This document shows, piece after piece, positions 26,317 to 62,244 of a DNA stretch of 64,000 nucleotides. Positions within the stretch are counted from its first letter, which is position 1, and each line of letters opens with the position of its first letter. Position numbers and translations under genes: made by a program. A model generated the notes under the pieces. It was not told the DNA's origin and ran no database searches. It saw only the letters and a list, made by a program, of their open reading frames with translations. The stretch lies in the IMG/VR virus record IMGVR_UViG_3300028888_000123; one strand, given 5' to 3'. Source of the DNA: a virus.

Positions 26317-26372
26317 CCTCTATAGGAATGCGGGGGACATTTCTATAGAGGCTATAAGAAGACTAAGTCTTC
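26317..26372 (-). terminator. Two adjacent hairpins (CCTCTATAG...CTATAGAGG 9-bp stem; GAAGACT-A-AGTCTTC).
   Basis: Inverted repeats read directly; they lie between the late promoter-like element and the next ATG, so they could be a leader structure rather than a terminator. Confidence 0.4.
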
Positions 26373-26420
26373 CTATATTTAGATTATATTTTTTTAAGGT
26401 TTTGTTATAACTTTTACGAG
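26372..26420 (-). promoter_or_regulatory. Late promoter-like element, copy 3.
   Basis: CCTATATTTAGATTATATTTTTTTAAGGTTTTGTTATAACTTTTACGAG aligns over about 45 of 50 nt with 47445-47493 and 62196-62244. Read on the minus strand it gives a -10-like TATAAT followed by CTAAATATAGG. Confidence 0.55.
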
Positions 26421-26469
26421 TAAAATGTATTTATAATTTTGTTTCTCCGTTTACTATAAATCTTTTTTA

Positions 26470-26845
26470 TAAAAATGGCTTCTTTCGTCAGAGAATAGCT
26501 CTTTGTCTTCATATTTTTTCTTTACTATTCCTGGCTGGTAGAAAGCTCATCTAGGCAAGGAGAGAATAGCATATAATTCTTCTCTCACTACATCGCTTAA
26601 CACAGGCTCCCATAATTTTACCATATCTCTTAATTGCTCGTGTGGGCTTTGTGATTGCCCATAAAATCTATTGAGAGCTTGGTGCTTTCTGTCTGCGATT
26701 AACACTTTATTAATAGCCTCGTTAGTGTTGTATTGTAATCTATTACAACGTCAAACTATATGGTGCTCTGATTTAGCATCAGCTGGAATACATTTGTTAA
26801 GATGGTATTCTTCTCAATTAATGGTTATCCTGTGTGGTTTGCTCA
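26470..26845 (-). CDS. Hypothetical protein (about 125 aa).
   Basis: ATG at 26843-26845. Confidence 0.35.
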
Positions 26846-27324
26846 TCTTCTTTAATATTTTCTAAATTTTCGTCTTTTTTAGGTAACTTCTGTTTAAATA
26901 AGTTAGCTATAAATTCTATAAGCAAAGAGAAGGCGTCAATTTCTGATAGGTGAGAACCTGTATTTATTGAATATATGTGTCAGATAATAGAGTATCACTC
27001 TGTTATGATTAATATACTCATTACACTTGTCACTAACATAGATATATCTTCTGCGCCAACCCCCTTTAGAACGAAGATAAAAACTAAAGGAAGAATTAAC
27101 TTAGAGAATTTCTTAAAGATTCATCTCCAAGCATTTGTTGAAGTTACACTTTGTTTATCTTCGAAATAAGCATCAGCTATTCAGAAGACAAAATCTAAGA
27201 AGAGAAGTCCTGCAAAGATAGCATAGACTTCTCCACTTAATTGTAGATATTCTAGTACAGAAGCAAGTGTTATCCCCCCTGCCACACTAGCAACGGCACC
27301 AGCTGCACTGAATTCTCAAGTCAT
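26810..27324 (-). CDS. Holin-like multi-TM membrane protein (about 158 aa).
   Basis: Three predicted TM segments (AAGAVASVAGGITLASVL; IFAGLLFLDFVFGIA; LILPLVFIFVL). It sits immediately upstream of the peptidase gene. The 3' end overlaps the next gene and is approximate. Confidence 0.4.
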
Positions 27325-27346
27325 TATTTATTATTTAAAATTAAAT

Positions 27347-28273
27347 TTATAACGGTAGCTCTTGATTAATCTCTGGATATAACTTTCTAGCTACTTGAGA
27401 GAAATTAACTATAGCTTGTTGCATTTCTTTAGGCTCATTATTATATTGCTTCTTTAATACTTCAATAACTACCTTCATAACATTCTTTCTCTTTAAATAT
27501 TCTGGGCTTTTAGCAGCATCTTCTTTAATGTATAATACCCAATATCTATAGTTAAATCTACTTCCAAAATCTTTCATAGTTTTGAAAGAAATGTAGAATC
27601 TAGATTTAAGTTTTTTACCATCGTTAGCACTCCAGCTATTAACAAACCAGAATCAGTTAGCGTCCCAACCGACAAGTGCTATACAATGTCATCCCGTAGG
27701 AGTTGTAGGAACAGTCTTAACTTCTCATTTAGTCATCTCATTCCAAGTAGTTTTATCTCATCTTACACACCATACGATAGGGCAACCTTGATAAAGATAT
27801 CTCTTCATTAAATCAATAGCTTTATCTGTCTCATCCCACGCTCAAGTTGCATAAGCATCGAATCTAGCTAGCTGTCAATTTTCTTCTATAAGAATTCACT
27901 CCTTTAATGCAGTTGCTACAGCTTTCTCTACAAAATCTCAACCATCATATTTAGTTGTTGAATGTCCCATCTTACTCCATAGGTCTTTCCATTGTGGAGT
28001 AATTATATTCCTATCTGTCGGCTCTACTCAATTCTTTTTTACCTGTAAGATTTGTACTCAATGTGTAGTTCACATAGCAGTGCAGCTTCAAAGAGCTCAT
28101 TGATTAGAGGTTTTATAAATCCATTTTCATAGAGAGAAAAACTCTGGGAGCTTGACATTATAATCAACTTTAATCGCTTCTGTCGCTTCGAAGTCTGTAG
28201 CTTCGGCCATATCTTCTGGAAGGGTTAGAGCTCATTCAAAAATCTTTATCTCTTCTTCTGTTAAATTTTCCAT
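27347..28273 (-). CDS. Papain-like (C1 family) cysteine peptidase, putative endolysin (about 308 aa).
   Basis: GALGSCTAMG (catalytic Cys context) and GGHCIALVGWDANGFWFVNSWS (GGHAV...VGY...W.VKNSWG signature). ORF track 27347..27577 is the C-terminal piece. Confidence 0.5.
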
Positions 28274-28299
28274 AATATATAAATTAAGGAATAAATTTT

Positions 28300-28366
28300 C
28301 TTGGATGGGTAATTGTCCCACCCAAGAAATTAATGTGTCTTATTTTCATTTTGGTAACGGTACTAC
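28300..28366 (-). promoter_or_regulatory. Conserved stem-loop element (copy a).
   Basis: CTTGGATGGGTAATTGTCCCACCCAAG hairpin plus AAATTAATGTGTCTTATTTTCATTTTGGTAACGGTACTA. About 60 of 67 nt identical to 49971-50037. Confidence 0.55.
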
Positions 28367-28384
28367 CTAGGTTTTCTATTTATT

Positions 28385-28600
28385 TTATTGGGTAATTTTT
28401 TGTAAAGTTTCTTCATATGAAATATGTTTCCCATTCCAAATAATTATTGGTAGCATAGTTTCTCCTTCAATATCTTCTGGGTTAGCTTCATTAATGTTTA
28501 CTTCCTCAAATGTAAGTCCATTATTTTCAGCATAACTCTTTAATAAAGGAGCTATCATATGGCAACGGGAACAGAAGTCCCCCGAAATAAGTCTAATCAT
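28385..28600 (-). CDS. Glutaredoxin/NrdH-like thioredoxin-fold protein (71 aa).
   Basis: ORF track entry; CSRC (CxxC) motif near the N-terminus; size typical of the family. Confidence 0.5.
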   Translation of the reverse strand: MIRLISGDFCSRCHMIAPLLKSYAENNGLTFEEVNINEANPEDIEGETMLPIIIWNGKHISYEETLQKITQ

Positions 28601-29088
28601 TTTTAGTTCAAAATTTTCTGATAAAATCTGAATTGTCTATTTTTGACTGTTCAAAGACAGTTCTCCCGTAAAATTCGCTCTTCTTACCTTCGTTATATCA
28701 ACTCACTGGTCTAATGTATCACCAATATGTTACCGATAAAGCATTTAACTTTATCTTCTATATGTTACCATATAGTTCGGACTATATCTTCAAATAACTT
28801 TCGTTAAGTGTTGGGCACTCGTGTTGCTTTCATTACTGGTCTAGTAGTATAGCATTAGTCTCTGCACGTTCTCCCTATCCCTAAGGAGCTTCGCTCAGTA
28901 TTGTCCTTATAGGAGTTCCACTGAATTCACCCAATGTTTAAAGAGAGACATAATACTTAGTCTATCACTCTCGTATACACTTCACAAGGCACTCTTTTAT
29001 AAATCTTTCAATCACTTCACATAACTTCAACTGTCTCAATGGTTTTTGGCATAATGGTAATTATAGTAAAATATAAAAAACATATAAT
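28601..29088. ncRNA. 480-nt non-coding island: candidate structured RNA or replication origin with iteron-like repeats.
   Basis: Stops in all six frames even with TGA as Gly. Internal repeats TATGTTACC(G/A)ATA x2 and CTGGTCTA(A/G)T x2. Everything around it is densely coding. Confidence 0.35.
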
Positions 29089-29111
29089 CCCCTAAGGCAA
29101 AGCCCTAGGGG
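29089..29111. terminator. Hairpin CCCCTAAGG-CAAAG-CCCTAGGGG.
   Basis: 9-bp imperfect GC-rich stem; similar to the CCCTAG hairpin at 38551. Confidence 0.45.
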
Positions 29112-29112
29112 A

Positions 29113-29253
29113 AATGAATTAAAGATAATTTAATATTGCCACTAAAGCTATAATGCTTATAGCAACAATCACTCTAAATAGAAATAAATCTATCTTAATG
29201 ATTCCTATCACAAATAGGATTAAGAATATAAGAAGGAGAAATAATTTTAGCAT
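29113..29253 (-). CDS. Small hydrophobic membrane protein (about 46 aa).
   Basis: MLKLFLLLIFLILFVIGIIKIDLFLFRVIVAISIIALVAILNYL. Confidence 0.3.
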
Positions 29254-29286
29254 ATTGGATTAAAGGAAAGGATAAAAGGCTGATAT

Positions 29287-30432
29287 TATATATAAGCTAA
29301 GCGCGCCCCGAAAGTCCAATACGTACTCGTAGCAGAATAATACACAAACAAAAAGAAAGCACCAGCACTCGAAGCACTTCTCTCATCACCACCAGCAAGC
29401 GCCACAGCAGAAGCATCCACATAACCGAGGTCACAGTAGTAAGTTGTATAATTATCTCAAGAGTAAGCTGATGGGAAGAACATACCTTTATCGTTTCAAA
29501 CTATTGATGTGATATTTCAATCTATTGAAGTAGCACTTCATAAACTCTCCCATCAATAACTTGTATTTCATAGTTCTTTTAATTTTGAAGGGTTGTTTGT
29601 CATATTCACATAATTTCAATATATTCAATCTACCCATTCGGAGATGTTTCACCACCAGTCTTCAAGTCAGAACAATCTAACTCTTCAAGTAGATGAAGTA
29701 TTAGTAGCTCAAGTTGCTAAGTTTCAGCTTATTCAAGTTACTGTAGTTCATAATACTTGCACAGCACTTCAATTAGTGTAACCTTGTCCAATCACAGACT
29801 GACTATTAGGATTACCATATTTCATCATATATAACGCATTTACATAGTTTCTTATAGGTAATGTAATTAGTGAATAATGTGATGAACTTCAGTATCAAGT
29901 TATAACATCTGTATTTCTAAAGTCTGTAATAGAACGGTCTACTGTCGGATTGGCATTAGTTGCCCAACTTCTTAATTTACTAGAATTAGATGTTCATTTA
30001 AAGGCTCATACATACATTTGATTTTGGATACTTCCATCTCTATTAAATGCATAATATGTATATCCAGGTTTATTAGGGTCTGCTGTGATGCTTAATGTAA
30101 CTTGGCTTCCACTCTTAGACATTTTAATTCATCTTCTAGGGAATTTTATCATCACATTATTAGCCCCAGTAAGAGTTCATAGTTGAGATAGGTTTAATAC
30201 TCAAGGAGTAGTCTGTTTTACCTCTGCTGTTTCGTTTCAATTTGCATCTAATAACACTGCTGAATATCAAAAAAATTCATCAAAAGCTGTATCTCAAGCA
30301 GTTAGTCAAGCTGCATCATCTGAATAAGTCCATCCACTAGACATATTGCTTTTCTCTGTTCGTGAGATAGTGAATGTTCTATAAGTAGGTCGCACTTTAT
30401 TCTCTCATAGATAAACTGCTTTGATTTCTTTT
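29287..30432 (-). CDS. Tail-fibre/receptor-binding-like protein (about 381 aa) with a GC-rich 3' end.
   Basis: Ser/Thr/Gly/Asn-rich; the C-terminus YYCDLGYVDASAVALAGG...YYSATSTYWTFGARLAYI is encoded by an unusually GC-rich stretch (29290-29450). Confidence 0.4.
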
Positions 30433-30474
30433 TGTACTAACATTTATTTAATAAATTATATAAATCTAAATTAA

Positions 30475-31226
30475 TTTAATTTTGTCCATCACTCTCGTGG
30501 TTGTACGGATTCGTTCTTGAATGGTCTTAGAGAACATCAATGTCATCTATCCATATAACTTCATGGAATTATAGAAGTATCAAATGCTAATGCACGACTC
30601 TGTGTAGAATTATATGGAACAGATGTAAAATAATATCATGCCACTCAAGAATTGTATGCCGTAGCATTTGATATATCACGGTATCAAGCCAATGGAATTT
30701 TTATACACTTTATAAAGTTTGTAACTCAACTTAATCACAGTGCTGTATAAGTGTTATATAATGTATTATATTCTGTGTATGTAGGCACATGGAATCATGA
30801 TTCACAAGGTCATTGTCTAGCAGCTAATGTATCAGTAGTATTTCATCGGAGATTGTCATTCTGGCTTGTAGACCAGTCTCATCAATAACTTACCTTAATA
30901 AAAGAACTTCAAGAGTAATAGTTTCAAGGTCAGTAATTGGAAGCATTTACTTTTGTAGTAGTTGATGATATAGTTCAACTCCAAGAAAATCAGTAGTTAT
31001 TTCATCGCTGATAGAATTTACCACAATTAGACTCACTTAATGTATCCCCACTATTATACACAGTAGTGGCTCATAAGTTCTTATCAGCAATAGTTATCCA
31101 ATTAATACCATCAGATGATAAAGAAATAAGTCATAAGTCTGAATTATGATATATTCAAGCAACAGTAATAGGTTGCACTTCTACCCACATATATATTTTC
31201 TTAGGCTCTGTTTGTACTAAGGTCAT
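30475..31226 (-). CDS. FISUMP-like (Fibrobacter succinogenes major paralogous domain) stand-alone protein (about 250 aa).
   Basis: NCGKFYQRGNNYGFSW ... AGYRDISNATAYNSGVAGYYFTSVPYNS...GHGCSLRPFKNE parallels the domain signature (CxxxYQWGN...GyR...G..gYYWSS...gfSVRCv.D). Confidence 0.45.
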
Positions 31227-31256
31227 AATTGTTAAAAGAAAAAATAAATCAGAATT

Positions 31257-31968
31257 AAACTACTGTATTACTTGTGTAGTAGGTTGTGTTTATTGCTACT
31301 CAAGTAACTGTTCCCCCTGTTGATATAAACATAGATTTAACACTCTGTGTACCCTCTGTACCAGTTCATTCAGTTGGTATCCTATATGGAGTTTGATAAT
31401 CTCACGTTTGTGTTGATGATAGTTTTATATTAGAACATCATTGAAACATTCACTGATAACAACTATTTGGGAGTGTAGCCGCTGGAAGCTCAGGCAATGT
31501 ACTAAGTTGAGTACATAATCTAAACATATCCAGATAACATGAAACTGAAAGTGTAGTGGCAGGCAACTTAGGACTGCTTGTTAAATAAGCATTACCATAA
31601 AACAAGCGATAGAAACATCGAGTGGATGGTGTCTCTAATGATAGAGTGCTATTCTTACATAATAAGTAGTTTACATCTCCACTAGCACCTACCAGTCCAG
31701 TAATTACAAATCTATAAAAAGCACTACTACTTGTGCTAAATCTAGTAACAGTTTCAGATTTATTCCTCCAATATACTTTATCTCCTATGTTAGTAAGAGT
31801 TATAAGTGTACCAAAAGTATAATCAGACCAAGTTTGTCAATCTGTGCTTGTTTCTAGGCTTACTAATGCTGGACTTCAGCTTTTATTTAATGTTATAGTA
31901 GAATTAGTTTGTTCTGCTGTAAAACATAATTCTGATGGGTTATATTCTCTCATCATATAAATAGCCAT
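31257..31968 (-). CDS. Repeat protein with tandem LP-x-TTL/CY-x-x-MF-x-x-C units (about 237 aa); probably a virion or adhesin-like protein.
   Basis: LPATTLSVSCYLDMFRLCTQLSTLPELPAATLPNSCYQGMFQGCSNI. Confidence 0.35.
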
Positions 31969-31974
31969 CTCTTA

Positions 31975-32394
31975 TTAGAATACGTGATAAATAGTTGTTG
32001 CATCTTTACTAGAAAGAGCATTAAATTCTGCCTCACTTCAAGCCCATATCTTCGTTACTGTACTTGTTGTTCCTGTTGTATCGTTTTCTATTCATCATCA
32101 TCCAAATTTATACTCAGTTCAGTCAAGATAGAAACCTGTGACTGTTTCTGCTTGTGGAGTTACATCATAAAATATCCACTCTCCTCAGACACGAGCTCAA
32201 CTATTAGCGATTATTGTATTATTTGGTAATGGTGTTCATCATATTGATATAGCTAATGCAGTTACTGCTCATCAAGAGTTCCAAGATAATCACAATATAT
32301 CTCATATTGTATTACTTGTGTTAACTCAACTTACATATAAAGTGGTACTATCATTATAGTTACGTATAGTTATAATATCTCAACCTCCTGCCAT
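31975..32394 (-). CDS. Hypothetical Gly-rich protein (about 139 aa).
   Basis: Its start follows the stop of the giant fibre by 2 nt. Confidence 0.35.
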
Positions 32395-32396
32395 TT

Positions 32397-35300
32397 TTAA
32401 CTTTGTTTAATAAAATAAATTTTTCCAGCAACAGGATTACTTACTTGTGAGTATTCCGATGCTGTCATTACCGTAGCAGTAGTCACATCTCCAGTCTGTC
32501 CATTCACACTAAGTACTCCTGTGTTTGTTATTGTATTTCAATCTCATCATATCCAAGTTCATTGAGTTTCTCATCACCGGAGATTATCATTATGAACACT
32601 ACTCCAATCGTATGGGGTACTATTCCCAATTATGAATGTATCGCTTTCATAATATCAATTAGCTGTGTTTGGTCAATAATTTGAAGCATCTACTTGTGTA
32701 CTAGAAGTTGTAATACTTCAAGTCCAAGCGAATCAATAATTATTACCCCATTGATAATATTTACCACAATTAGCTTCGCTTAATGTATCTCAATTATTAT
32801 ATACTGTAGTTGCTCATAAGTTTTTATCCATAATAGTATATCCTGTCGTTCAGTCTGTAATAGAAATTAATCATTCAGTTTGATTCCAGAATATTCAAGC
32901 ACTTCATAATGTTCCATTTATTACAGCCCAAGAAGATGTAGGTAGCTCAAATGAATCCTTGAAACAACGAACGGAGAACCCGAAAACACGGAAGTGGTTA
33001 TTATCCACGAATACGCTGGACGAATCCAGGTAGATGTGACGGGCGTTAATCGTGCTGCCAGACACATAAGGAGAAGACGACCAATAGCGACCGATGGAAC
33101 CCTGGTCGTTGGGGCTAGCAGAGTTGTAACGACGGCCACCAGCGAACGGCATATGCAAATTTATTCTCCAGTCATCTCAAGAAGTAGTTAAACCTAATCA
33201 ATCCATTATAGTTTTAAGTCATTGCCATTCTGTTGTTAAAGGTACGTGAAATCCATCTGGTGCAGGTCACTGCATATCTGAATGTGTAGCTCATATAGTT
33301 ATTCATTCTCAAGCGTTATATTCTTTTCAAGCAACTACTACATCTCCATACTGTCAGTTTACACTTGTGACAGGTATGTTTGCTTCTACTCCATTCTTTA
33401 TGGTTTTAGTAATGTAATTTGTCATTATACTGTTTTGTAAATAATATAAAGGTTTCAATCTGAACTAGCTCACGATATGTTGTTATATTCAGTTTGAGTT
33501 ACTAATTTTCACGTTTCTAAATTCACTGTACTAGCACTACTCTGATTAGCTGTAAATGTTCATTTGCTAGTTCATCATTGATTTATTGTCAGAGTTCAGT
33601 TATTTACTGTTGGAATAGTTAATGTGACAGCTCAAGTCTGCCCATTTACACTACTAACAGGAGCGTGCGTTTTTATTGCTCACTTTAATACTGATGCAGA
33701 TATACTCCTTGCTGATGTAGATGTTCAAGTTGTAGCTTCACTTGCACTCATTGCTGAGTATGTTGTATTACTATCTGTAAATAGATGTAATGCTCATCAG
33801 CTTTCATATTTAGTAGTATATTGGAATTGCCTTGTATTAGCCTTAGTAAAATATGAGTGTCCTGCTAATGCAGTGGTAGTTCACATTACAGGGATATAAG
33901 CTCAATTTCAGATTTTTACTCTTACATTTCTATTTGCACTTGCCACTACCATTTCTGTATCTACTACAAATGTATAGATAGCTCATTCTCTCCATTCTAT
34001 TCCTGCGCTAGCACTAATGTCTATGTTAGTATATCCATAAGAAGTATTATAAGGTGCTACTCATTTAGTATCATCTGTACTTACTGTTACATCTGCCTCA
34101 GTAATGATAAATACATTATTAGCACTTATTACATTACTAGAGATTTTGATATTTTCTCCAGCTATTAGAGTATCTTGTTTAGTACTATCGTGATAAGCAT
34201 TTGTAATATATCAAGCATCATTATTTAAAGTAGAAACATTATCTCAAGGTTGTACTGCTGTAGCACCTGCACTTGCTCCACTTCTTATCGTAGCTAAGTC
34301 TGATATAGTATCCTGCTTTCAAGCTATAGTCGTATCCATAGCAGCAATTTTATCATAGACTGCATTTTTGGAAGGGGCTATTGTTGTTACTCAGTTCCAA
34401 GAAGAAGCATATGCTATATCTGAGATTTGACTTGGATAAGTAACATCTACCTCTGTAATTCAAGTTACCTGTCATAATGAGTTCGTTGTTATCTGTGGAA
34501 CCTTTGTTGCACTTCACTTACTTGTATAAGCTGTTTGTGTTGCTAAGGCATTTTGTTTTCAATTCCAAGTAGATTTCTCAGAAGAGGTTACAAATAAGTT
34601 TGTACTTCATTGAGTAATATTATCTGAAGTATTTGTTGTTTTATTAAAGTAATTTGTTAAGTCTACTGAAGTGTCTCATATTTTTACCCAAGTCGAATTA
34701 GCGTAAACATATTCTTCATATTTATCTGCCCCGCTTCAAGTAGGTCAAAGCAAATAAATTACATTTGTTTTTATATCAGTTGTAGGTAATGTTGCTACAA
34801 TTTCAAATCATTGAAAATTTTGTACTAAAGCATTTACTTCTGCTTGTGTATATGTCTCAGTCTTTTTATAGTAATTAGTTAGATTATTTACTGCGTTCGT
34901 GATAAATCAGCTATCATTCGTTAAGTCTGAAACCTTTGTAGGAATTGCTGAACTATCAGCTTTGCTTGCTATAGTTGTATCCATAGCAGATATCTTATCA
35001 TACATAGCATTCTTTGAAGGAGCAATACCTGTCACACCATTCCAACTTGCAGCATAAGCTTCATCACTTACAGCTCAACTTGTAGCAGCAGAGATATTAT
35101 CATCTACATATTTCTTTGTAGCAGGATGATAACTTCAAGTAGGAGTAAACTCTATTGTATTTGTTTTAGTTAATACTTCTGTTTTATCAGCTTTTCAACT
35201 TATATCTGGCTGTTGAATAGTTACCTCTGTAATTCAAGTTACCTGTCATAAACTGTTAGTTGTAATTTGTGGGACTTTAGTTGCACTTCATTTAGATGTA

Positions 35301-38506: not shown

Positions 38507-38550
38507 AATTATATTGTTTTTAAATTAAAAGTTTAAATGACAAAATAAAC

Positions 38551-38583
38551 CCCTAGATATATTTTTAAGAAATACATCTAGGG
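38551..38583. terminator. Hairpin CCCTAGAT-(17 nt)-ATCTAGGG.
   Basis: 8-bp stem read directly; lies between two fibre genes. Confidence 0.45.
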
Positions 38584-39752: not shown

Positions 39753-39811
39753 TAATTAAATTTGGTTAAGGGATAAAAATTAACTTAATGGGTTAATAAC
39801 TATATATTTAT

Positions 39812-47267: not shown

Positions 47268-47300
47268 AATTTTTAGTTTATGAAATTAAAATACGAATAT

Positions 47301-47314
47301 CATAGCTAGCTATG
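47301..47314. other. Perfect 14-bp palindrome CATAGCTAGCTATG in the 178-nt leader of the scaffold-capsid operon.
   Basis: Read directly; operator-like. Confidence 0.5.
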
Positions 47315-47444
47315 TTTAGATTAAATCGCTTCCTTCGCCTACCAACTCGAAGTACTATCCCATAACTAGCTAATCCATTCAACCACCATCACCATTTTAT
47401 GCGATTTACGCATCACTTATGAAAAGGCTCCAATTATTACCTTT

Positions 47445-47493
47445 TCTATATATAGATTATAAAATTTAGGATTTTTACTATAACTTTTTAAAG
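47445..47493 (-). promoter_or_regulatory. Late promoter-like element, copy 1.
   Basis: TCTATATATAGATTATAAAATTTAGGATTTTTACTATAACTTTTTAAAG. On the minus strand it reads TTATAG-N16-TATAAT-CTATATATAGA. Confidence 0.6.
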
Positions 47494-47537
47494 TAAAAAG
47501 AAAAATCTGAGTTTAGAACCCAGATTTTCTTTCCATA

Positions 47538-49894: not shown

Positions 49895-49970
49895 AATTTA
49901 TTAGCATAAAAATATAAAAGAAATATTAGGTACTTTCGTTATGAAAATAATTTTAAGACACATACAATCT

Positions 49971-50037
49971 CTTGAGTGGATAATTGTTCCACCCAAGAAA
50001 TTAATATGTCTTATTTTATTTTTGATAACGGTACTAA
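49971..50037 (-). promoter_or_regulatory. Conserved stem-loop element (copy b).
   Basis: CTTGAGTGGATAATTGTTCCACCCAAG plus AAATTAATATGTCTTATTTTATTTTTGATAACGGTACTA. Confidence 0.55.
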
Positions 50038-53000: not shown

Positions 53001-56000
53001 CTGCAGCAGAAAGACTTTCGGCTCAAAGTTTTCTTTCTAGTCAAGTCTGCTTTAAGAAATAAGCTACTCACTGTTGTGGAATCGTGAAGAGCTGTCAAGG
53101 ATATGACATTGCGATTCTGAATAAGGTATTTGAGCCATTAGCAAATGATAATATTGTATTAGCCCGTCTTCACCATCAATCATTTGTCAATGTAAATCAA
53201 GTTAACCCTTGTAGTATTTTCTTGAAATCTTCATCATTATATGCGCTTCCAAATATAATATTAAACTGTTCTCTGCTAATTCAACTCAATTTAGTGACAT
53301 AATCTCTATATCAAGTCAACCATCAAGAAGTTCTATCTTCTGAAGTACGTACAAATTCTCTTACATAATATTTACTTCTTGGGTTACCGAATTTAAAGAA
53401 CTTAAATATTTGATTTTGTTCTATACCAGATAATATTCAATAAATTCATTTAATATCCTGTATGTCATTTACTACCTCTCATAAATTAAAAAAAGCTCTA
53501 TTTATATCTTCTCTAGTCGTACATCACAAAGCTCAATCTGCGCTACCTAAATGATGCTCAAGAGTTTTAAAATATCTTGCCATATTTTTAGCTAAGTCTT
53601 CAGCTCTAGTAGTAGGCTTAACAGCTATAATCTGTGGTAAAGACATAGGGTAATATCTACTATAAGCTTCTTTAACTTTAGCCCATCTATCCATTATTTC
53701 TTGTGGTCTCCACATTCACGCTGTCACTCTACCTTTTAATCATATCAAGTAATCTTTAATTCATCTTCCAATCTCTTCATTCAGTCAATAAGTAGCATCA
53801 GCTGCATCGCTTAACATATTTGTTAATGAGTATCTTCTAAGCTTTTGTCTTACATCCATTAAAATTGAGGACATAAGAGCTCTTTCTCATTCTGTGATTA
53901 ATTGAACTCAATCCATCATAGCTTGTAGAGTTCAGTTATAACTATTGATTATATTCTCTCTATATTGTTTGTTTTGTAATTCTAGATTTCTTTCTTCTTT
54001 TTCTGTCAGCTTTTTAGTTGGGTCTGGTAAAGAAAGTCAAACTTTATCAGCTTCCTCTACAAAAATATTCTCTTCATTAAATATAGTTTCTTTCCAAGAG
54101 TCAATAGACTCATCTCATAGCTGTCTTAAGCTCTTCTCGTCTCAGTTCTCTAATTGGATTATAATTCTATCCTGTAAAACATCCATATCTGGAATATCTA
54201 GGTTTCTTATGTCTATTTGAGTTTGTTGATATTTTTGTTTTAATAATGTTTCAACTTTTTTCTTTACATTAGGCATTTCTATGCCTCACTCTACTAATAC
54301 TCATCAAGTTGGCAAGTCTCTTAAATATGTATATGGGGTGAAGGCGTTTATATATGTAGCCCTCATAAAATTAGTAATAGCTTTCTTGTCTTTAGATTTA
54401 GTCACTCATACTTTCTCGAATCTTTCAATAGCTTTTGTGTCTTTAATCCATTTATCTACTAATCACTCTAGCTCTCACTTAGTGATATATCCTTGTCAAC
54501 CTTCTCTGAAAAAAGATTTAATACTTCAGAAAATTCATTCTTTGATTTCTTTATCTATATTAGATGTGTTATCGAAGTTTTTTAATATCTTAACATCCTT
54601 TAAAGCATTCCCATACAAAGCTCTAGGTAATCAATTCTCGGCTATTCTAAAATTCTCAAAGAAATTATATTTAGCCAATATAGGAGATTGCTTATACATT
54701 AAGTTCGTTACTATGTTTGCATTAGTATTTAGTGCTTTAGCTGATTCTATGTAAGACAATAAGGCATAAACTTGTTTATTAGATAGACTATTTATACCTT
54801 CTGTTCATAAAGCTTTTACCGATTCTAATCATTTAATATTACTTGGAAGAGTTTGTAGATTACTTATTAATTCTTGCCTTGCATCCACTACTACATAATC
54901 TTCTCAAACCTTTTTAATAGTAGCTCAGTTATCAACTAATTTTTGTTTCCTAGCATTTATTTTTGCTTCTTTTATTTCATCTTCTCATTTAAGTCATTTC
55001 CCTATATCTTTATCAATATCGTTCTCTTTAGCTATTCTTTTTAATGATTTTTTATAATTATCCAATATTCTATTCTTTATTCATTTCATTTCTTCCATTG
55101 CCTTACTTGCACTCATAGAATCAACATATATAGGTAATGCATATTTGCTACCTAATAATGATTGTCTATCTGCTGGAGTAAGTAATCTTCAGTATTTAGA
55201 TAATACTATTTCCTGCTCAAACATATCAAGGGCATAAGAAGCTTGAAGTTTTATTTGTTGTGCTTTTTGAAATGTTAACGTTCAGTCTTGAAATCATTTT
55301 CTGAATTCCTCAATATATCTATCTAATATATCTGATAATATTTTATTTTCTTGTCCTGAAGGTATCATTCATTTCTTTGCTCAATCAATAGCGACTAAAG
55401 CTGAATATGTATCAGGTAAGAATACATTCTCCGTTTCTCTATATACCGCACGTTCTGCATTGTTTATGCTGTACTGCCTTCATTTATAAAGAGCGTCCTC
55501 ATAATTAAATTTAATATCCTGAGGTAATAAATTATCTATTATAGAATGTATATTATCTGTAGTGAATGGAATATTATTTTTGTAAAATAACGATTGAATA
55601 AATGGAGTGTTTAATAACTCTATGGTATTATTTCAATCAGCTCATCAAGTCAGATAAATATAGATAAAGTCTCTTACATTAGCTAATGGCAGAGAGTATC
55701 AAGCATTCACTAAGTTATTAGCAAACGCAACTGAGATTGTATTAAATAAGTCGTCATTGATAAGCTTACAAAATTCATTCAATTCTTTATCAGTTATTGT
55801 TTGATTAGGAAAGAACATATCCTTATATACCGTAGCAAATGTTCTATTTTGAAACATAGATTGAATGTCGGTCATTCTCATAGTTTCAGCACTTCATCAA
55901 CTAGACAATGAAATTAATTTTCATTTTGCCTGTAAATAATCTATCTCATTTTCTGCTGTTCTGAAATCTATATAAGCATCTCTAATCTCTGAAAGGTTAT

Positions 56001-58855
56001 TAGAATTCTTTATTGCATCTTCACTTACAACTCCTCAAATGCTTTTATTTACTTCTGAGGCTAATACATCATCTGATAAATCTGCTATTCTATCAATCTC
56101 ATTTTGAACATTAATCATTTGTTTCTCGAATTTTCCAGAAACAACCATAGACAATGAAATTCTTTCATCTACCATTTGCCATAAATTTCATCTGTCTGAC
56201 ATATTCTGAATTACTTTCACAGGTATTCAAGTTTTTTCTGATATAACATTATTAATTCTATCTAATGTATTCTTATCAATAGTTGTAACAACTTTTCAAT
56301 CTACTACTTTCTTTTCGATTATTCACAATAACTCTCAATAATATTTACGAGCTGCATCGTCTATGTCGTTGTTGTAGTCTATTAACGCCTGGGCTTCATC
56401 TCACGCTTCCTTTTCTCATTTTGACAATGGAGATAATTGACTTTCCTTTAGGGCAATATATACTGTATCACCTTTAGCTCACACATTATTAATTACAACT
56501 CAATCATACTTATCTCATCATTTTAGCTGTTTATTTAATTCTTTGACATAGTTCGAAAAGTCATCTGCAGACATTTTCTTTCACTCATAGAAAATACTAT
56601 TTATCGTACTCTTTTTAGCACTAACTTCAAATGGGTGCTTAATTATTAGATATGTTCATTCTTCTCAATCTACCTTTTCAGAAGAATAGGTTAAGCTTTC
56701 TGTAGTTCAATTTTTATTAGATTTATATACAACAAGAGGAGTTCAACCAGATGTAGAAACGACAGTATCTATCTCAGTTCATTCACCAGTAGTTATTTCA
56801 TACATTTCTTTTCTCATCCTCTCTGTTGGAATACTTTCTCAAAGAGATTTAATTGAAGCTGTTCAAGCTATTTCGTCAAACATATCATCATTCTCTGTCT
56901 TGAATATTAAACTTCTTCACTCCATATCAAATCTTCAAGACATTGCTCAGCGAGGATATATTACTGTAATTTTGTCTTCGTCTTTCCGTCATTCAGTTTC
57001 ATTCACTTTCTTTAATATATTGTCGAGCTCTTTATTATCTCTCCATCTCGAATCAGAAACTATTAAATATCAACCTTTGTATTTTTCTCTAAGAGTTCAT
57101 ATCAAATCTTCTGAGTCAGTTAAGTCTTCTATCTCTGTACTAACAGTCATCTTATTTCTATTAGCACGCAAATCCATTAAATCAGCTTTAGCTCTAGTAT
57201 TCTCATCTTGAATATATAGTCATTTCCTAAAGTTAAAGAATGCTTTAGGTCTATCTGCTAATGTTTGCCCGGTAATTGTATCTAAAGCGATTTCCTCTGG
57301 TTTAGATATATTTGCATTTAATTTTGCCTTTTTATAAAGAGCTATAATCTTATTCGCTGCAGCTTTATTATTTCATAGTAGATATTGGGTAGCGATGTTC
57401 AATACAGTACCGCTGTCATATTCTCATCTCTCTAAAAGTTTTATAATATTTCTATCTCAAGTAGCAGTATAAATTAATTGGATAACGTCAGTTGGTAGCA
57501 TCTTTACTCAAGCAATTTCAATTACGTCAGGTAATTCTCAATCTCAAATTGCCTGTGCAAAGTCTTTTAATCAATTATATAATTCTTTTCAATTGGTTCA
57601 AGATACATTCAATCATAACCTTCTAGCCCTATTATATAACGACGAAGCTATAACAACATTAGAGAATGTAGCTCACTGTTCTACAAACTGCATAGTTCTA
57701 ATTAATGACCCAAGTTTCTCTATATCATTATAATTTAATTTCTTTCTGCTGGCTAAGTAGTTTAGTTTTTTTGCGTAAGCATCTCTTAATAATTCAGCAT
57801 CGCTTCAAAACATAAGCTGCTTTGTGTTAGTGAATGCCTTAGAAAGTAAGATACTTAAATCATCTATCTTCTCTATCTGGTCTAAAGTTAATGGTCAAGT
57901 ATAATCTTTTAAATTTTTAGCTGTTCCTGAATCACGAAAAAATTTTATTATTTTATCCTCAGTAGTTCTGTTAGTTCAATCTGCTCAAGCGGCGATTATT
58001 TCTCTAGCCATAACATACTGAACCCAAGTATCCATAGCATCTTGCCCATCATTCTCTGCTATTTTTACAATAGTTTGCCATTCATTATCAATAGCAGAAT
58101 ATCAAGATGGAGCTTTTAATTCATTCTTTACCATTTCAGCATTGCTCCATTCTCACGTTACTTTATCTGTTTGTTGCCATCAATGTTTTTTATCCTTGGC
58201 TCAAAGTTTTCTTTTCTTTTTAGCCTCTTTTGCAGCATCTCTGTCTTTTGCTTTTTGTACATTATCTAAGGCTTTATTATAAAGCTTTTTATATTCTTTC
58301 ATAAACTCATCTTGAGTTATTTCTTTATTAATATATTGCTTTTTTAAAGCCTGCACAGCAGACGTTTGTCACAAATCTGTATATTGTTTAAGGCTATAAT
58401 TAGTGGCCATAAATGTATCTAATTTTTGTTTTATTTCTTTTACCACATCTGCAGGAGAGCCTGATGTACTTCACCAAGCTCTTGCGATATCTTCATAGTC
58501 TACTGGATTAGCGTTTTTTACTTTATTCAATAAAGTCATTCACTCTGCTAAGCCCCCACCCATTTTAGTTATTTGTCTAGCTAATTCGTCGTATGCTTCG
58601 GCTCCAAATCTTCCTCATAATATCTGAGCTTGCACTATTCATCTAATCATAATATCTGCAGACTCAGCCTTTAATTCTAACTTGTGTGCATCCATTCAAG
58701 TTAAAGCGTCTACTCATTCGCCGGTTCTCCTTGAGCGCTCAAGCATACTATTTCTTAACCTAGATAATTCTGCTAATTCTTTTGCTAAGTCATCATCTCA
58801 TCAGATTATTCACGTAGCGATAATATTAGCTAATTTATTACAGTCTATCTTTGCC
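50038..58855 (-). CDS. Giant ORF (about 2939 aa if continuous) of unknown function; possibly an internal virion or ejection-type protein.
   Basis: With TGA as Gly I found no TAA or TAG from ATG 58853-58855 to TAG 50038-50040. ORF track pieces 53533..53715, 52138..52320, 55699..55881, 49... fit this frame. Continuity over 8.8 kb is not fully verified. Confidence 0.35.
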
Positions 58856-58879
58856 ATAATGTATAATTGCTAAAATAAA

Positions 58880-61861
58880 TTAACATACGATTTCTTTTAC
58901 TTTATTAACTACATTCCCGTATGCTCAAGAGTCCACTACTGCGTCAACAGTAGCATCTTTAATTTTTTTATTTGGAGTGGTGATTTCTTTTAATTTACTT
59001 AAAGCATTTCTTGCGTCTTCAGCCTCAGATATTTGAATTCACAAAGAAAATAAATCTATATTCTCTGCTTTCATTCATAGCTTTTCAAGTCATTTCTCAG
59101 TTAGATGCTTCTTTCAATTTTCATCTGCTACTGTAAAATATTCTCATTTTGCATCGTCAGCCACATCAGAAAATCATTCAATCTTCTTTAAATTAGCTAT
59201 ATCGTCTGGGCTAAATCATTGTTCAACTTTAGCAGCAATACCTCAGTCTATTGTATTTAATTGTTTTTTAATGTTGTCGCTTCAAGTCTCCCAAACAACA
59301 GTAGCATCCGTTCAATTCTTTAATTTAATCTTAGATACATAAGGTCAGAACGAAACTTGTCAAGGTATCCTTCATAAATATTTTATAATATCAGCTGGAT
59401 TAGTTAATTCGTTTTGAATTAATACATTCATCCTCCTGGCAATATCTGAATCTTGTCTGTAGAATTCATTAATATATTGTTGCAATAATTTCTTTGTCCA
59501 TTCAGATGCGTCTTGTTTTTTATCTTGAGGGAGTTCATTATAGGCACGTTTAGCCACTTCTTGAATTTTACTAAAGTTATTACTTAGCTCTTTTAAGTCT
59601 CTAACACTAATATTTGAATCAGCCTTCTGTAATAGTCTAACTACATTGTCCCTAGCTTCCTTAGAAGAACCCATATAGTCTAATACATCCCACACTCATC
59701 AATTTCACATCGCACCTTTATTAGCTAATTTTCTAATTCACTGCACAATCTGAGCATCTGTAAATAAAGGTAATATAGCATTAAATCATAATGTTCATAA
59801 CGCAGACAATACAAACGATTGTGTTGAATATGCTTCAGTATCGAATGCACTCCATTGTGCATCCATTGCCTGGTCTATCACAGATTGAGTTACAGTCCAA
59901 TCAACTAATTCTCAAATTGCTTTTCGTGTTGGATTAATTTTACTTGTAGCTTTAGATGCAGCTAATAATCAATCTATTCATTTAACCACACCTCAAGTTC
60001 AATACTTAACTGCTTGATTAAGTCTTTGAAACATAGACATTCACTCAGCAGCCTTTAAAGCCTGATATGCTCTTTTAGTTTTTGTTAATGCTCATACAGC
60101 TCAAACTCATCAAGTAGCAACTCATAATAAATAATCTCGTCCAAGATTTCAAGCAATCTCTGGGACATATTCTACTCACTTAAGCCAGTATTTTTGTATT
60201 GTCCTAGACGAACTAGATTTGTCTGTTTCTATTAGCCTTCATATAGTGAAGTCTTGGTCTAAATACGCAGACGTAGACCAAGCAGATTTATTTCAAGATA
60301 TTTCATCTTGAAACTCTCATCGATTTCGTGGAGTCATAGCGTGATATGTTAGTGTACCTAAATCTCAAACTAACATAGCAGCTTGTTGTCAGATTTCTCA
60401 TAGCCTATATCAGAATCATTCTCACCGATGCTGTGCCCATTCCCAAGCGTTTCATATTGCTGAACCCCTTTCTTTTTCGTACGCATATAACGTGTTATTG
60501 GCCATTTGTTGAAATACATCTATAGTAGAATCTCATTTCCACCATCATCATTCTCAACTAAGTTTTTTTACTTCTGAAGATAAAACATCTCATAAAGTTT
60601 GTCATCATTCAAAAGAGTCAAGAGTTTCAGAAATTTCTCAATTTTCGTCTACGTTTTTAGCAGATTGTTTTAAATAATTATTAATTCATTTAGCAGCAGC
60701 AACTTCCATTTGTCTAAACCTCTCAGCGGTATCGATAACTAACGCTTCTCAAGAAGTCCATTCGGTTTTCGGTTTTGAACGAACAACTTTTTCAAGAGCA
60801 TATATAGGAGCGGCAATTGTATATATTCTTGTAGCTTGGTCACGAGCAGAATCCCATCAGCTAGACATAAAATCTGCCTGTACTCTTCAATCTTTTATAT
60901 ATTCCTCAGAAATATTATTTACATCCTTTAATGCTTCATTCATAAAACGAGAAACATATTCGCTCTGCATTGAAGAAGATAAATCAATAGTAGGTTCTTC
61001 TTGGTCAAGTCAATATGATTGATAAATTTGCTGTGCATTATTTTGATTTTCTCATTGTGCATTTACATATGTAAGCCACTCGTCTAATGTAGGTTCATAA
61101 TTTCATTTCTTTGTATTATTCTGAGCAAGCCTATCTAACTGTTCTTGTGTATATTGGTCTTTTCTTCTATGGACATTTCATAAAAATCAATCAGTATAAT
61201 AGTCGTCACTATTTAATCTAAACATTCACCTCGTATTCATATAGAAGTTTAGCAATGCTTGATTTATATCTTGCTGAGTCGAATTAGGGTCACTCGCTAC
61301 ATTATTATATTTTTGCCATTCATTTTGGAACATTAAACCTTCTCATCATCTATCTCCTAATTCAAGGAATAGCATATTATGATTATCTGGGTTATATCAT
61401 AATGCTACGTGTTTTTCTGCCTCCTGTGCTTCAGCATCTGCTTTATATGAATCTACTATCTTATTCGCAAATTTACTAATATTATCGCTCCATCTATTTA
61501 ATGTATCAAAGAAATTCTCATTCTCTTTTTCTTTTTCTTTTTCTATAGCTTTTTCTGTGCCTCAAGAAAGTTCAGTTTCATTAGGGTTTAAAAATCATCA
61601 TTGTGGGATGTCTGGGGCATAATCTTGTGCATTTTCTCTATTAATTTGACTTGCCACGTCTGATAAACTTTTATTAGCAAAACTACTCGTAAGTGTATTA
61701 TTACGAGTAGCAGTGTTAATGTTAGTATTATTTATAGTTCAAGTCTGTATTTGCTCATTTAATGTTTGAGGTTTTGCTTCTGTATCATCATCACTAAACC
61801 AACCACTTACGGTGTTTTTCACTCCGTGCCAAATATTTTTTAAACTATCTAGTAATGCCAT
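58880..61861 (-). CDS. Large protein (about 993 aa); portal candidate by position (second gene after TerL).
   Basis: ATG (CAT) at 61859-61861. ORF track 59372..59695 is internal. Confidence 0.3.
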
Positions 61862-61893
61862 AAAAATTTAGTTCCTGAAATAAATACTATGTT

Positions 61894-62192
61894 TATTCAA
61901 CGTCGTAATTATCTTCTCTTTGTGCTTCAATTTTCTCCTTCTCATATTCTAATTCTTCTTGGTTTTGTCTGAGAATTCTCCCATCGATTACTGGCACAAA
62001 TGCAATTCAGGCTGCCTTGTCTAACAAAGCCTCTGCGTCTGATTTGGTAAGATTACAATGTTCCAAATAATAAACATAATATCATTCATTATCTCTCCCG
62101 AGTATTGTCAACAATTCTCAATCGTCATCTCTAATTAAAGCATATTTTTTTGTTAATGCTTTTAAGATTTCTTGTTTTTTTTCTATCAACAT
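61894..62192 (-). CDS. Hypothetical small protein (99 aa), first gene of the late transcription unit.
   Basis: The ATG lies 3 nt downstream of the late promoter-like element. Confidence 0.4.
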
Positions 62193-62195
62193 TTT

Positions 62196-62244
62196 CCTAT
62201 ATATAGATTATAAAATTTAAGGATTTTTTTATAACTTTTTAAAA
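62196..62244 (-). promoter_or_regulatory. Late promoter-like element, copy 2.
   Basis: CCTATATATAGATTATAAAATTTAAGGATTTTTTTATAACTTTTTAAAA, nearly identical to 47445-47493. Confidence 0.6.

What the first reader, a model, noticed from the sequence alone, without database searches (positions are those of the whole stretch)
26372..62244. Three near-identical 50-bp late promoter-like elements
The copies are 26372-26420, 47445-47493 and 62196-62244 (45-48 of 50 nt identical). Each lies upstream of a minus-strand gene start: 3 nt, 178 nt and about 100 nt upstream of the ATG respectively. On the transcribed strand each reads TTATAA-N16-TATAAT-CTATATATAGG, which is sigma-70-like hexamers plus a conserved downstream box. 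The same CTATATATAGG box also sits in + orientation at 11058-11072, ahead of the ATG at 11093. The copies partition the late arm into three transcription units: terminase and giant ORFs, scaffold-capsid-tail, and lysis plus Cys-rich proteins.
Basis: seen in the sequence. Interest (0 to 1): 0.65.

Follow-up and report, generated by a model that had tools for sequence, protein, structure and literature searches.

The report
Four conserved phage-specific promoters
A roughly 77-kb virus of uncultivated bacteria that read TGA as glycine carries four near-identical promoter-like elements, kept at the same four places in dozens of related viruses; they most likely switch on its structural genes, which is a new example of a familiar kind of phage control rather than a new mechanism.

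Summary
The repeat is real. The window holds exactly four copies, three on the minus strand and a full fourth on the plus strand at 11023-11068. About 0.01 copies are expected by chance.

The consensus is AAAA-GTTATA-N17-TATAAT-CTAWATATAG-RRA. All four copies are intergenic and co-oriented with the downstream genes. The same four orthologous sites occur in 47 related metagenomic loci.

The window is a phage that uses genetic code 25 (TGA = Gly). Its host is probably Absconditabacterales.

The -10 hexamer and the 17-bp spacing fit a sigma-70-family holoenzyme. The -35 position (GTTATA) does not match the canonical TTGACA promoters that this phage family also carries.

Covarying RNA hairpins begin 0-3 nt after the A that lies 7 nt past TATAAT. 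At one site the ATG follows 8 nt after that A. Both features point to that A as the transcription start.

The 15733 product folds like a small sigma factor and has no close relatives outside this phage family. I infer, without proof, that it directs host core polymerase to these promoters.

Identities were overstated, the ATG distances were listed in reverse order, and the putative terminase lies upstream of copy 3. The arm also has more punctuation than three units.

Verdict: a new member of a known kind, of moderate interest.

The parts
26370..26415 (-). Promoter-like element B1 (-39 to +7). It has GTTATA at 26411-26406 and TATAAT at 26388-26383. The predicted +1 is the A at 26376.
   Evidence: 54.6 bits. 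Orthologs were found in 16 JGI loci.
26305..26376 (-). Leader RNA of B1. A 5' hairpin at 26376-26354 is flush with the predicted +1. A second hairpin at 26353-26316 has a conserved CCCCCG loop and is followed by a U-rich tract (terminator-like). The ATG is at 26271.
   Evidence: In individual ViennaRNA folds, 14 of 16 distinct sequences show the two-hairpin leader, built from at least 7 unrelated stem sequences; 15 of 16 keep the C-rich (CCCCCG/CCCCCA) loop. No Rfam family matches.
47443..47488 (-). Promoter-like element B2. It has GTTATA at 47484-47479 and TATAAT at 47461-47456. The predicted +1 is the A at 47449.
   Evidence: 59.2 bits. Orthologs occur in L018 and L019 and in 11 JGI loci.
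47495..47529 (-). Intrinsic-terminator-like hairpin plus T run that closes the portal unit, immediately upstream of B2.
   Evidence: The T-run is conserved before B2 orthologs.
47268..47449 (-). Structured 5' leader of about 180 nt between B2 and the scaffold-like gene (ATG 47267). It has a 5' hairpin, an invariant AATGGTGATGGTGGTTG, a multi-helix domain, and a final helix that pairs with the start codon.
   Evidence: RNAalifold predicts 43 pairs, 16 of them with compensatory changes, in 9 sequences. No Rfam match.
62194..62239 (-). Promoter-like element B3. It fills the whole 46-nt gap between the stop codon of the terminase-like ORF and ATG 62192. TATAAT is at 62212-62207. The predicted +1 is the A at 62200, giving an 8-nt 5' UTR.
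   Evidence: 61.2 bits. In the 10 JGI orthologs the ATG is 3-5 nt after the TATAG (7-9 nt after the predicted +1), and 2 nt after it in L100.
11023..11068 (+). Promoter-like element B4 on the plus arm. It has GTTATT at 11027-11032 and TATAAT at 11050-11055. The predicted +1 is the A at 11062, and the ATG is at 11093. It lies upstream of the block that contains the sigma-like gene.
   Evidence: I3, I4; 44.9 bits. Orthologs occur in 10 JGI loci and in L026. No strong plus-strand terminator lies before 15733.
15733..16293 (+). Gene for a 186-aa sigma-70-family-like protein with sigma2-like and sigma4/LuxR-type HTH domains. It is the candidate specificity factor for the B elements.
13122..13149 (+). 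Canonical TTGACA-N16-TATAAA promoter-like site, given as a comparison class rather than as part of family B. It shows that this phage also carries host-type promoters with a normal -35.
   Evidence: Conserved in L025 and L026. Perfect TTGACA-N16-TATAAT sites lie in the putative early region of relative L054.

Best explanation
The four elements are a class of strong, phage-specific promoters for the bacterial multi-subunit RNA polymerase.

Each has these features:
- a perfect -10 hexamer (TATAAT);
- a conserved non-canonical hexamer (GTTATA/T) exactly 17 bp upstream;
- A-tracts at about -39 to -36 and -27 to -24;
- an invariant AT-rich discriminator plus initial transcribed sequence (CTAWAT / ATAGRRA).

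Transcription most likely starts at the A that lies 7 nt after TATAAT, at window positions 26376, 47449 and 62200 on the minus strand and 11062 on the plus strand.

The transcripts differ by site. B1 and B2 transcripts open with a protective 5' hairpin. The B3 transcript is almost leaderless.

The units they head are:
- B2: the scaffold-like and capsid genes.
- B3: a small gene and two giant ORFs.
- B1: a cluster of unannotated proteins, behind a leader hairpin and U tract that probably attenuates transcription.
- B4: the plus-arm block containing the sigma-like gene.

My preferred mechanism is inferred, not shown. Host sigma-A holoenzyme first uses the canonical TTGACA/TATAAT promoters. This produces the phage sigma-like protein gp15733. 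That protein then redirects host core polymerase to the GTTATA-N17-TATAAT promoters, and B4 gives positive feedback.

Shown: the family, its geometry, its conservation, the leader structures and the sigma-like fold.
Inferred: promoter activity, the start site, and which sigma is used.
For: Non-randomness and exact count:
- 4 sites against 0.01 expected.
- The weight-matrix scores are bimodal: 45-61 bits for the four sites, and nothing else reaches 14 bits.

Position and orientation:
- All four copies are intergenic and point at the next gene. The plus-strand copy is on the plus arm and the minus-strand copies are on the minus arm.
- B2 directly follows a terminator.

Conservation:
- A pattern scan of JGI metagenomes gave 47 true loci falling into the same four orthologous classes.
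- Two contigs of 64-69 kb carry exactly four copies each.
- Relatives found independently of the -35 pattern keep the element: L018, L026 and L027, whose sigma is only 60-65% identical.
- The logo of 49 distinct instances shows conservation at positions the search did not force: AAAA upstream of GTTATA, AAAA and C in the spacer, and RRA after the box.

Start site:
- In 13 of the 16 class-1 sequences the 5' hairpin pairs from the very first nucleotide of AUAG. In class 2 it starts at nt 3-4.
- In class 3 the conserved ATG lies 7-9 nt after the predicted +1 in the JGI loci, and 6 nt in L100.

Distinct class:
- Canonical TTGACA-N16-TATAAA/TATAAT promoters without the box exist in the same phage family.

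Sigma-like protein:
-.

Precedent:
- In phiEco32 and 7-11, a phage ECF-size sigma reads a few phage-specific promoters before the structural genes and before its own gene (PMC4331800).
Against: - There are no transcription data, so promoter activity and the start site rest on geometry and on the hairpin argument.
- TATAAT is the consensus of housekeeping sigmas. ECF-size sigmas normally read quite different -10 elements, so the host sigma could suffice.
- The invariance of GTTAT in the 47 JGI loci was forced by the search pattern. Unbiased support comes from only 8 sites, of which 7 keep it.
- A second conserved intergenic family (element C) could equally be the target of the sigma-like protein.
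- At the portal-scaffold site, relatives with 50-60% capsid identity lack the element or carry only a variant.
Confidence: 0.6

Rival explanations
1. The elements are ordinary host sigma-A promoters and need no phage factor. A perfect -10, an optimal 17-bp spacer and UP-like A-tracts would compensate for a weak -35. The conserved box would then only tune melting, promoter escape and mRNA 5' structure.
For: - TATAAT is perfect in every copy, and the spacing is exactly 17 bp.
- GTTATA still shares 3 of 6 positions with TTGACA.
- A-tracts lie where UP elements lie.
- The phage family clearly uses TATAAT-type -10 elements in its canonical promoters.
Against: - The same phage family has perfect TTGACA -35 hexamers elsewhere. 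Yet none of the B copies drifts toward TTGACA at four paralogous sites or in diverged relatives.
- The 16-nt stretch from -12 to +4 is nearly invariant. That is unusual for housekeeping promoters and is absent from the canonical ones.
- Structural genes would have no temporal control.
Confidence: 0.25
2. The elements are promoters for a phage-encoded single-subunit (T7/N4 RNAPII-like) or other non-canonical RNA polymerase. That polymerase would be encoded outside the window or hidden in the giant ORFs.
For: - A few near-identical copies are conserved through +1 to +7 and end in TATAG, followed by purines and 5' hairpins. This resembles T7, SP6 and K11 promoters (recalled from memory).
- Giant ORFs of 993 and 2939 aa have unknown function.
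Against: - Conservation is bipartite and reaches -39 with a fixed 17-bp gap between two hexamers. That is the signature of a sigma-70-family holoenzyme, not the single block of about 23 bp seen in T7-type promoters.
- No polymerase homology was found in the giant ORFs by PDB sequence search or PHROGs.
- The sequenced flank beyond the terminase-like gene in a relative contains, by eye only, primase- and helicase-like genes and no ORF of polymerase size.
Confidence: 0.05
3. The elements are not promoters. They would be binding sites for a regulator (operator), or RNA-level signals such as processing or translation signals that happen to contain TATAAT.
For: - CTATATATAG is a 10-bp palindrome.
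- This phage uses no Shine-Dalgarno sequences and has a T-rich signal about 22 nt before most ATGs. At B3, the TTTTATAAT stretch falls exactly there.
Against: - The palindrome is broken in a large share of instances (CTAAATATAG, CAATATATAG, CAAAATATAG).
- Distances to the ATG are 3, 26, 100 and 177 nt, so the element is not a fixed translation signal.
- Conservation extends 35 nt upstream of the box with promoter geometry.
- Hairpins start within 0-3 nt of the predicted +1.
Confidence: 0.07

Closest known systems
Middle/late promoters of phages phiEco32 and 7-11, read by a phage-encoded ECF-size sigma (gp36); consensus TAATGTATA (PMC4331800)
   Same: - A lytic phage encodes one small sigma-70-family protein.
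- A handful of near-identical phage-specific promoters sit before the structural genes and before the sigma gene itself.
- Separate host-type promoters serve the early genes.
   Different: - Here the element is bipartite (GTTATA-N17-TATAAT) with a housekeeping-type -10 and a conserved +1 region. The phiEco32 type is a single element of about 9 bp.
- The sigma-like protein shows no sequence similarity to gp36 beyond the fold.
- The host is a code-25 CPR bacterium.
- No anti-sigma was identified here.
T4 middle promoters (sigma-70 -10 element plus a MotA box replacing the -35; sigma appropriation by AsiA/MotA). Recalled from established knowledge.
   Same: A good housekeeping-type -10 is kept while the -35 is replaced by a conserved phage-specific sequence at about -30 to -35. 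This class coexists with canonical early promoters.
   Different: I did not search for MotA or AsiA homologs. The candidate factor here is itself sigma-like. The conserved discriminator and +1 box has no T4 counterpart.
T7-group class III promoters (single-subunit RNAP). Recalled from established knowledge.
   Same: A few nearly identical copies are conserved across the start site, end in ...TATAG followed by purines, and give transcripts that begin with stable 5' stem-loops before highly expressed capsid genes.
   Different: The architecture here is bipartite with a 17-bp spacer and reaches -39. No single-subunit polymerase gene was found in the window.
Lambda PR'-qut-tR' (a short 6S transcript ended by a terminator just downstream of the late promoter, read through after Q loads). 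Recalled from established knowledge.
   Same: Copy B1 is followed within about 70 nt by a conserved terminator-like hairpin and U tract ahead of the downstream genes. A conserved sequence spans the promoter and the initial transcribed region.
   Different: Only one of the four copies has this terminator-like leader. No Q-like protein was identified. Simple attenuation explains it equally well.

Membership tests
Housekeeping (sigma-70/sigma-A type) bacterial promoter | -10 hexamer close to TATAAT | tested here: met
   TATAAT is perfect in 4 of 4 window copies and in all 49 distinct instances from relatives. In most of the relatives the search pattern forced this.
Housekeeping (sigma-70/sigma-A type) bacterial promoter | -35 hexamer close to TTGACA, 16-18 bp upstream | tested here: not met
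   The hexamer 17 bp upstream is GTTATA/GTTATT, matching TTGACA at 3 of 6 positions. The generic scan does not call these sites. True TTGACA promoters exist elsewhere in the phage family.
Housekeeping (sigma-70/sigma-A type) bacterial promoter | Transcription starts at a purine 6-8 nt after the -10 | not testable with these tools
   There is only indirect support. An A lies 7 nt downstream. 5' hairpins start at or within 3 nt of it. At B3 the ATG follows 8 nt after it.
Phage-sigma-dependent middle/late promoter class (phiEco32 / SPO1 type) | The phage encodes its own sigma-70-family protein | tested here: inconclusive
Phage-sigma-dependent middle/late promoter class (phiEco32 / SPO1 type) | A conserved motif distinct from the host-type promoters of the same genome, placed before middle or late genes | tested here: met
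   The B consensus differs from the canonical TTGACA promoters. Copies precede the scaffold and capsid genes, the giant ORFs and the sigma block.
Phage-sigma-dependent middle/late promoter class (phiEco32 / SPO1 type) | The phage sigma binds host core polymerase and initiates at the motif | not testable with these tools
   This needs in vitro transcription or infection time-course data.
T7-type single-subunit RNAP promoter | A single conserved block of about 23 bp (-17 to +6) | tested here: not met
   Conservation is bipartite and extends to about -39 with a fixed 17-bp spacer.
T7-type single-subunit RNAP promoter | A cognate single-subunit RNAP gene in the genome | tested here: inconclusive
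   None was detected in the window. About 13 kb of the genome lies outside the window and was only partly seen in relatives.

The most novel reading that the evidence does not exclude
The elements may be composite control modules rather than plain promoters. An orphan, ECF-sized phage sigma would keep housekeeping-type -10 recognition but have a new -35 specificity (GTTATA). The invariant -6 to +7 box together with the conserved leader RNAs would load or regulate the polymerase, through lambda Q/qut-like or put-like antitermination or sigma-dependent pausing. The relevant leader RNAs are the CCCCCG-loop terminator hairpin after B1 and the 180-nt structured leader after B2. This would be the first transcription programme described for a phage of code-25 CPR bacteria.
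Probability: 0.15. Interest if true: 0.6.

Novelty: new member of a known kind. Interest (0 to 1): 0.42.

Why it matters
Nothing appears to be known about transcription signals of phages that infect Absconditabacteria or Gracilibacteria. The one paper I checked on code-25 phages mentions neither promoters, sigma factors nor transcription (PMC10746230). A literature search combining Absconditabacteria with promoter terms returned nothing relevant.

This finding supplies the following:
- a sharply defined candidate promoter with predicted start sites;
- a candidate cognate sigma factor;
- canonical promoters for contrast;
- about 50 natural sequence variants.

Together these make the transcription programme testable. 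The tests could use in vitro transcription with heterologous core polymerase, or reads from rumen metatranscriptomes. The elements also offer candidate strong promoters for future genetic tools in these uncultivated bacteria.

As a mechanism it is one more example of a well-known phage strategy.

Tried and rejected
- Table-11 ORF calling gave almost no genes. This was resolved by showing that TGA is a sense codon and encodes Gly.
- An exact 17-mer scan of IMG/VR gave 17 hits, all without the upstream half, so they are chance matches.
- A capsid-based scan of IMG/VR and a tblastn against GenBank phages found no relatives.
- The generic sigma-70 consensus scans are uninformative. They find fewer hits than in shuffled sequence, and the B copies fall below their -35 threshold.
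- The giant ORFs show no polymerase homology by PDB sequence search or PHROGs.
- The terminase and lysis labels could not be confirmed.
- A MAFFT alignment of the B1 leaders failed because stem lengths vary. I replaced it with individual folds.
- Rfam has no family for either leader.
- I checked whether an extra 186-189-aa gene next to the sigma gene in L025 and L027 is a second sigma. It is not; it carries Cys/His motifs that look HNH-like by eye.
- A profile search for remote sigma homologs found only 18 clusters. The only Pfam sigma match among the nine remote hits scanned was a sub-threshold Sigma70_r4_2 hit (E 0.17).
- I considered GTTATA as a TcdR/BotR-type -10 element (PMC4031146). I rejected this because no conserved TTTACA lies upstream of it.
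- I tried to link the L020 and L027 loci to one genome by their record names. They did not match.

Full report
**What the window is**

With the standard bacterial code the 64-kb window has almost no long ORFs. Treating TGA as a sense codon raises the total length of ORFs of at least 150 aa from 4.4 kb to 59.5 kb.

TGA stands for glycine. The first large ORF then reads GAPGCGKST (a Walker A motif). It also gives clean Pfam hits to AAA_33, Metallophos and RNA_lig_T4_1. In homologs, TGA positions alternate with true GGN codons.

The gene map has two arms:
- The plus arm runs from 1 to 19818. It carries tRNAs, many small ORFs and the sigma-like gene.
- The minus arm runs from 19979 to 64000. It carries a portal (PHROG portal and adaptor hits), scaffold-like and capsid genes, tail-fibre-like genes and giant ORFs.

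The capsid protein has 74 homolog clusters in metagenomes, at 31-96% identity and on contigs up to 82 kb. None occurs in GenBank phages or in IMG/VR.

In the GTDB scan, the only two true hits lie on short code-25 contigs binned into a Candidatus Absconditabacterales MAG. So this is an undescribed family of code-25 phages of about 77 kb. The host is probably Absconditabacterales, but the host link rests on binning and shared code only.

**Checking the observation**

The three minus-strand copies are at the stated coordinates.

The core TATAATCTATATATAGG occurs four times with at most 1 mismatch and not at all with 2 mismatches. Weaker matches, from 3 mismatches to the 16-nt core, look like chance. 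Markov simulations expect 0.01 sites. A weight matrix built from relatives scores the four sites at 45-61 bits, and nothing else in the window reaches 14 bits.

The fourth site is on the plus strand. It is a complete copy (11027-11066), not just the box.

The 49-mers share 34-42 of 49 positions. The true values are 100 nt for the 26372 copy, 177 nt for the 47445 copy and 3 nt for the 62196 copy.

**Anatomy**

On the transcribed strand each copy reads AAAA-GTTATA(A/G)-N-AAAA-N-C-N-AA-NNN-TATAAT-CTAWATATAG-RRA.

The distance from GTTATA to TATAAT is 17 bp in every copy. In sigma-70 coordinates:
- TATAAT is at -12 to -7.
- GTTATA is at -35 to -30.
- The A-tracts are at about -39 to -36 and -27 to -24.
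- The box covers the discriminator (CTAWAT) and +1 to +7 (ATAGRRA).

The predicted +1 is the A that lies 7 nt after the hexamer.

**Conservation in relatives**

The portal-scaffold spacer of an 86%-identical relative keeps the element while the spacer sequence differs. Relatives whose sigma-like protein is only 60-65% identical carry perfect or near-perfect copies (L026, L027).

I scanned JGI metagenomes with GTTATW-N17-TATAATCWAWATATRG. This returned 67 loci. Twenty are unrelated chance or coding matches. The other 47 fall into exactly four orthologous classes that correspond to the four window copies (16, 11, 10 and 10 loci). Two contigs of 64 and 69 kb have exactly four copies each.

The logo of 49 distinct instances shows conservation at positions the pattern did not force. 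It falls to background outside about -39 to +7.

There is a caveat. The GTTAT and box positions were forced in that scan. The unbiased sites are the four in the window plus L018, L026 and two in L027, and 7 of these 8 keep GTTAT(A/T).

At the same site, relatives with 50-60% capsid identity have only a variant (L020: TATACTATAGTTTATAG) or nothing recognisable.

**Evidence for a promoter and for the start site**

- All copies are intergenic and point toward the next gene on their own arm.
- B2 follows directly after a hairpin and T-run terminator that closes the portal unit.
- Downstream sequences differ between classes but are conserved within a class.

The downstream sequences by class are:
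- **Class 1.** The RNA that would start at AUAG folds into a hairpin paired from its very first nucleotide in 13 of 16 distinct sequences. A second hairpin follows. Its stem has at least seven unrelated sequences, but its loop is always C-rich (CCCCCG or CCCCCA) except in L027. A U-rich tract comes next.
- **Class 2.** A 5' hairpin starts at nt 3-4. The rest of the leader, about 180 nt, has 43 predicted pairs, 16 with compensatory changes, and its last helix pairs with the start codon.
- **Class 3.** The conserved ATG (MLIEKKQ...) follows 7-9 nt after the predicted +1 in the JGI loci, and 6 nt after it in L100.

A 5' hairpin flush with the transcript end only makes sense if the RNA begins there. 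I therefore take this as independent, though indirect, support for a start at that A.

The palindromic look of CTATATATAG is not conserved, because variants such as CTAAATATAG and CAAAATATAG are common. This argues against a dimeric operator.

**Which polymerase**

The phage family also has canonical promoters:
- TTGACA-N16-TATAAA before the 223-aa gene, conserved in three genomes (13122-13149).
- Perfect TTGACA-N16-TATAAT sites in the AT-rich putative early region of a relative. These lack the box.

So the polymerase that reads early genes, presumably the host sigma-A holoenzyme, likes a normal -35. The B class differs exactly there.

The 15733-16293 product is conserved throughout the family. 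Only 18 clusters are related to it among 1.84 billion representatives, and it has no Pfam domain.

Its fold nevertheless looks like a sigma factor:
- The AlphaFold model (pLDDT 74) has two helical domains joined by a disordered linker.
- The 50 best Foldseek PDB hits are all sigma factors, with E of 2e-3 or weaker.

The window and the relatives' loci that I examined contain a single such gene. The extra neighbouring gene in some relatives is not a sigma paralog.

No strong plus-strand terminator separates B4 from this gene. This gives the same layout as in phiEco32 and 7-11, where the phage sigma gene lies behind both host-type and phage-specific promoters (PMC4331800).

I therefore favour the view that gp15733 directs core polymerase to the B promoters. 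I rate 'these are promoters' at about 0.85 and 'gp15733 is the specificity factor' at about 0.45. The main rival is that host sigma-A alone suffices, given the perfect -10.

The giant ORFs show no polymerase similarity. The bipartite geometry also argues against a T7-type enzyme.

**Transcription units**

- The putative terminase (Walker A and B motifs by eye; 716 aa in relatives; unverified) ends at 62239, upstream of B3. In a relative, the first gene of the late arm is preceded by a different conserved element.
- B3 sits inside that arm as an internal promoter before a 99-aa gene and the 993-aa and 2939-aa ORFs.
- B2 heads the scaffold-like and capsid genes. These are flanked by terminator-like hairpins (46333-46316 and 44775-44742).
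- B1 heads a block of unannotated proteins, behind a terminator-like leader that probably attenuates transcription.
- The arm also contains a canonical promoter-like site at 23280-23253.
- It further contains a second conserved family at 50037-49895, 28384-28274 and 21449-21347.

**Comparison and novelty**

Functionally this is closest to the phage-sigma promoter classes of phiEco32/7-11 and SPO1. In logic it resembles T4 middle promoters, which keep the -10 and swap the -35.

It fails the -35 criterion for a housekeeping promoter. It also fails the single-block criterion for a T7-type promoter.

It is a new consensus in a new phage family with an unusual host. That makes it a new member of a known kind, of moderate interest.

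Noticed in passing
whole window: The phage uses genetic code 25 (TGA = Gly) throughout. TGA codons are scarce in the capsid gene (3 in 497 codons) and the scaffold-like gene (6 in 301). They reach 6-10% of codons in other late genes, for example 46 in 455 at 19979-21346.
   Followed up: partly
window 47268-47449 (-): A conserved, covarying structured leader RNA of about 180 nt lies before the scaffold-like gene. It has an invariant AATGGTGATGGTGGTTG and a helix that sequesters the start codon. It has no Rfam match. In L027 a B copy at the junction of the two arms (15715-15668, minus strand) is followed by a similar 5' hairpin and about 500 nt of non-coding sequence.
   Followed up: partly
window 26305-26376 (-): A possible small RNA of about 70 nt, or an attenuator. 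It consists of a 5' hairpin and a terminator-like hairpin. The loop is C-rich (CCCCCG, or CCCCCA in L084) in all relatives except L027, while the stem sequence is completely different between them.
   Followed up: partly
window 21347-21449, 28274-28384, 49895-50037 (-); weaker copy 12271-12321; L054 4040-4110: This is a second conserved intergenic family (element C). It reads ...ACCGTTAYCAAAAWKAAAATAAGACA, then 7-10 nt, then a hairpin with a conserved UGGGUGG 5' strand and G-U pairs that fit only the minus-strand RNA. In a relative it precedes the first gene of the late arm. Its function is unknown. It could be a promoter class, a nut-like RNA signal or a processing site.
   Followed up: partly
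window 4597-7392 (+): The repeat TAATCAGACTTTTATATT occurs at least 7 times, once in each short gap between the small plus-arm genes (families D6, D7, D20).
   Followed up: no
upstream regions of 74 window genes: None of the 74 genes has a Shine-Dalgarno motif (GGAG or GAGG). Instead, about 70% of genes have T at -23 to -21, followed by A/T-rich, G-poor sequence. This points to SD-independent translation initiation with a U-rich upstream signal.
   Followed up: partly
window 28758-29010 (-): A group I intron (Rfam RF00028, 81 bits) lies inside the 685-nt gap between ORFs 28385-28600 and 29286-30443. It probably splits a gene.
   Followed up: no
window 487-968 and 3306-3378 (+): There are five tRNA genes. 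ARAGORN reports odd anticodon loops for two of them (487-561 and 3306-3378).
   Followed up: no
window 11949-12527: An apparently non-coding island lies in the plus arm. On the minus strand it has a TTGACA-N16-TAATAT promoter-like site (12501-12474), a terminator-like hairpin (12358-12339) and a weak element-C copy. The plus-strand ORF 12125-12421 may not be real.
   Followed up: no
window 994-3177 (+): A 727-aa fusion of a P-loop kinase, a metallophosphatase and a T4-type RNA ligase. This suggests an RNA repair enzyme next to the tRNA genes.
   Followed up: no
L025 6660-7220 and L027 9422-9991; window 13882-14454: A 186-189-aa gene with Cys/His motifs that look HNH-like by eye is inserted immediately upstream of the sigma-like gene in some relatives. 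It is absent at that position in the window. The window gene at 13882-14454 looks similar by eye, but I did not compare them.
   Followed up: partly
L054 1-700: An extremely AT-rich region in a relative, beyond its primase- and helicase-like genes (so called by eye only). It has repeated AAAAATGTCAA units, that is TTGACATTTTT on the other strand, and perfect TTGACA-N16-TATAAT sites. It is probably the early promoter cluster and/or the origin.
   Followed up: partly
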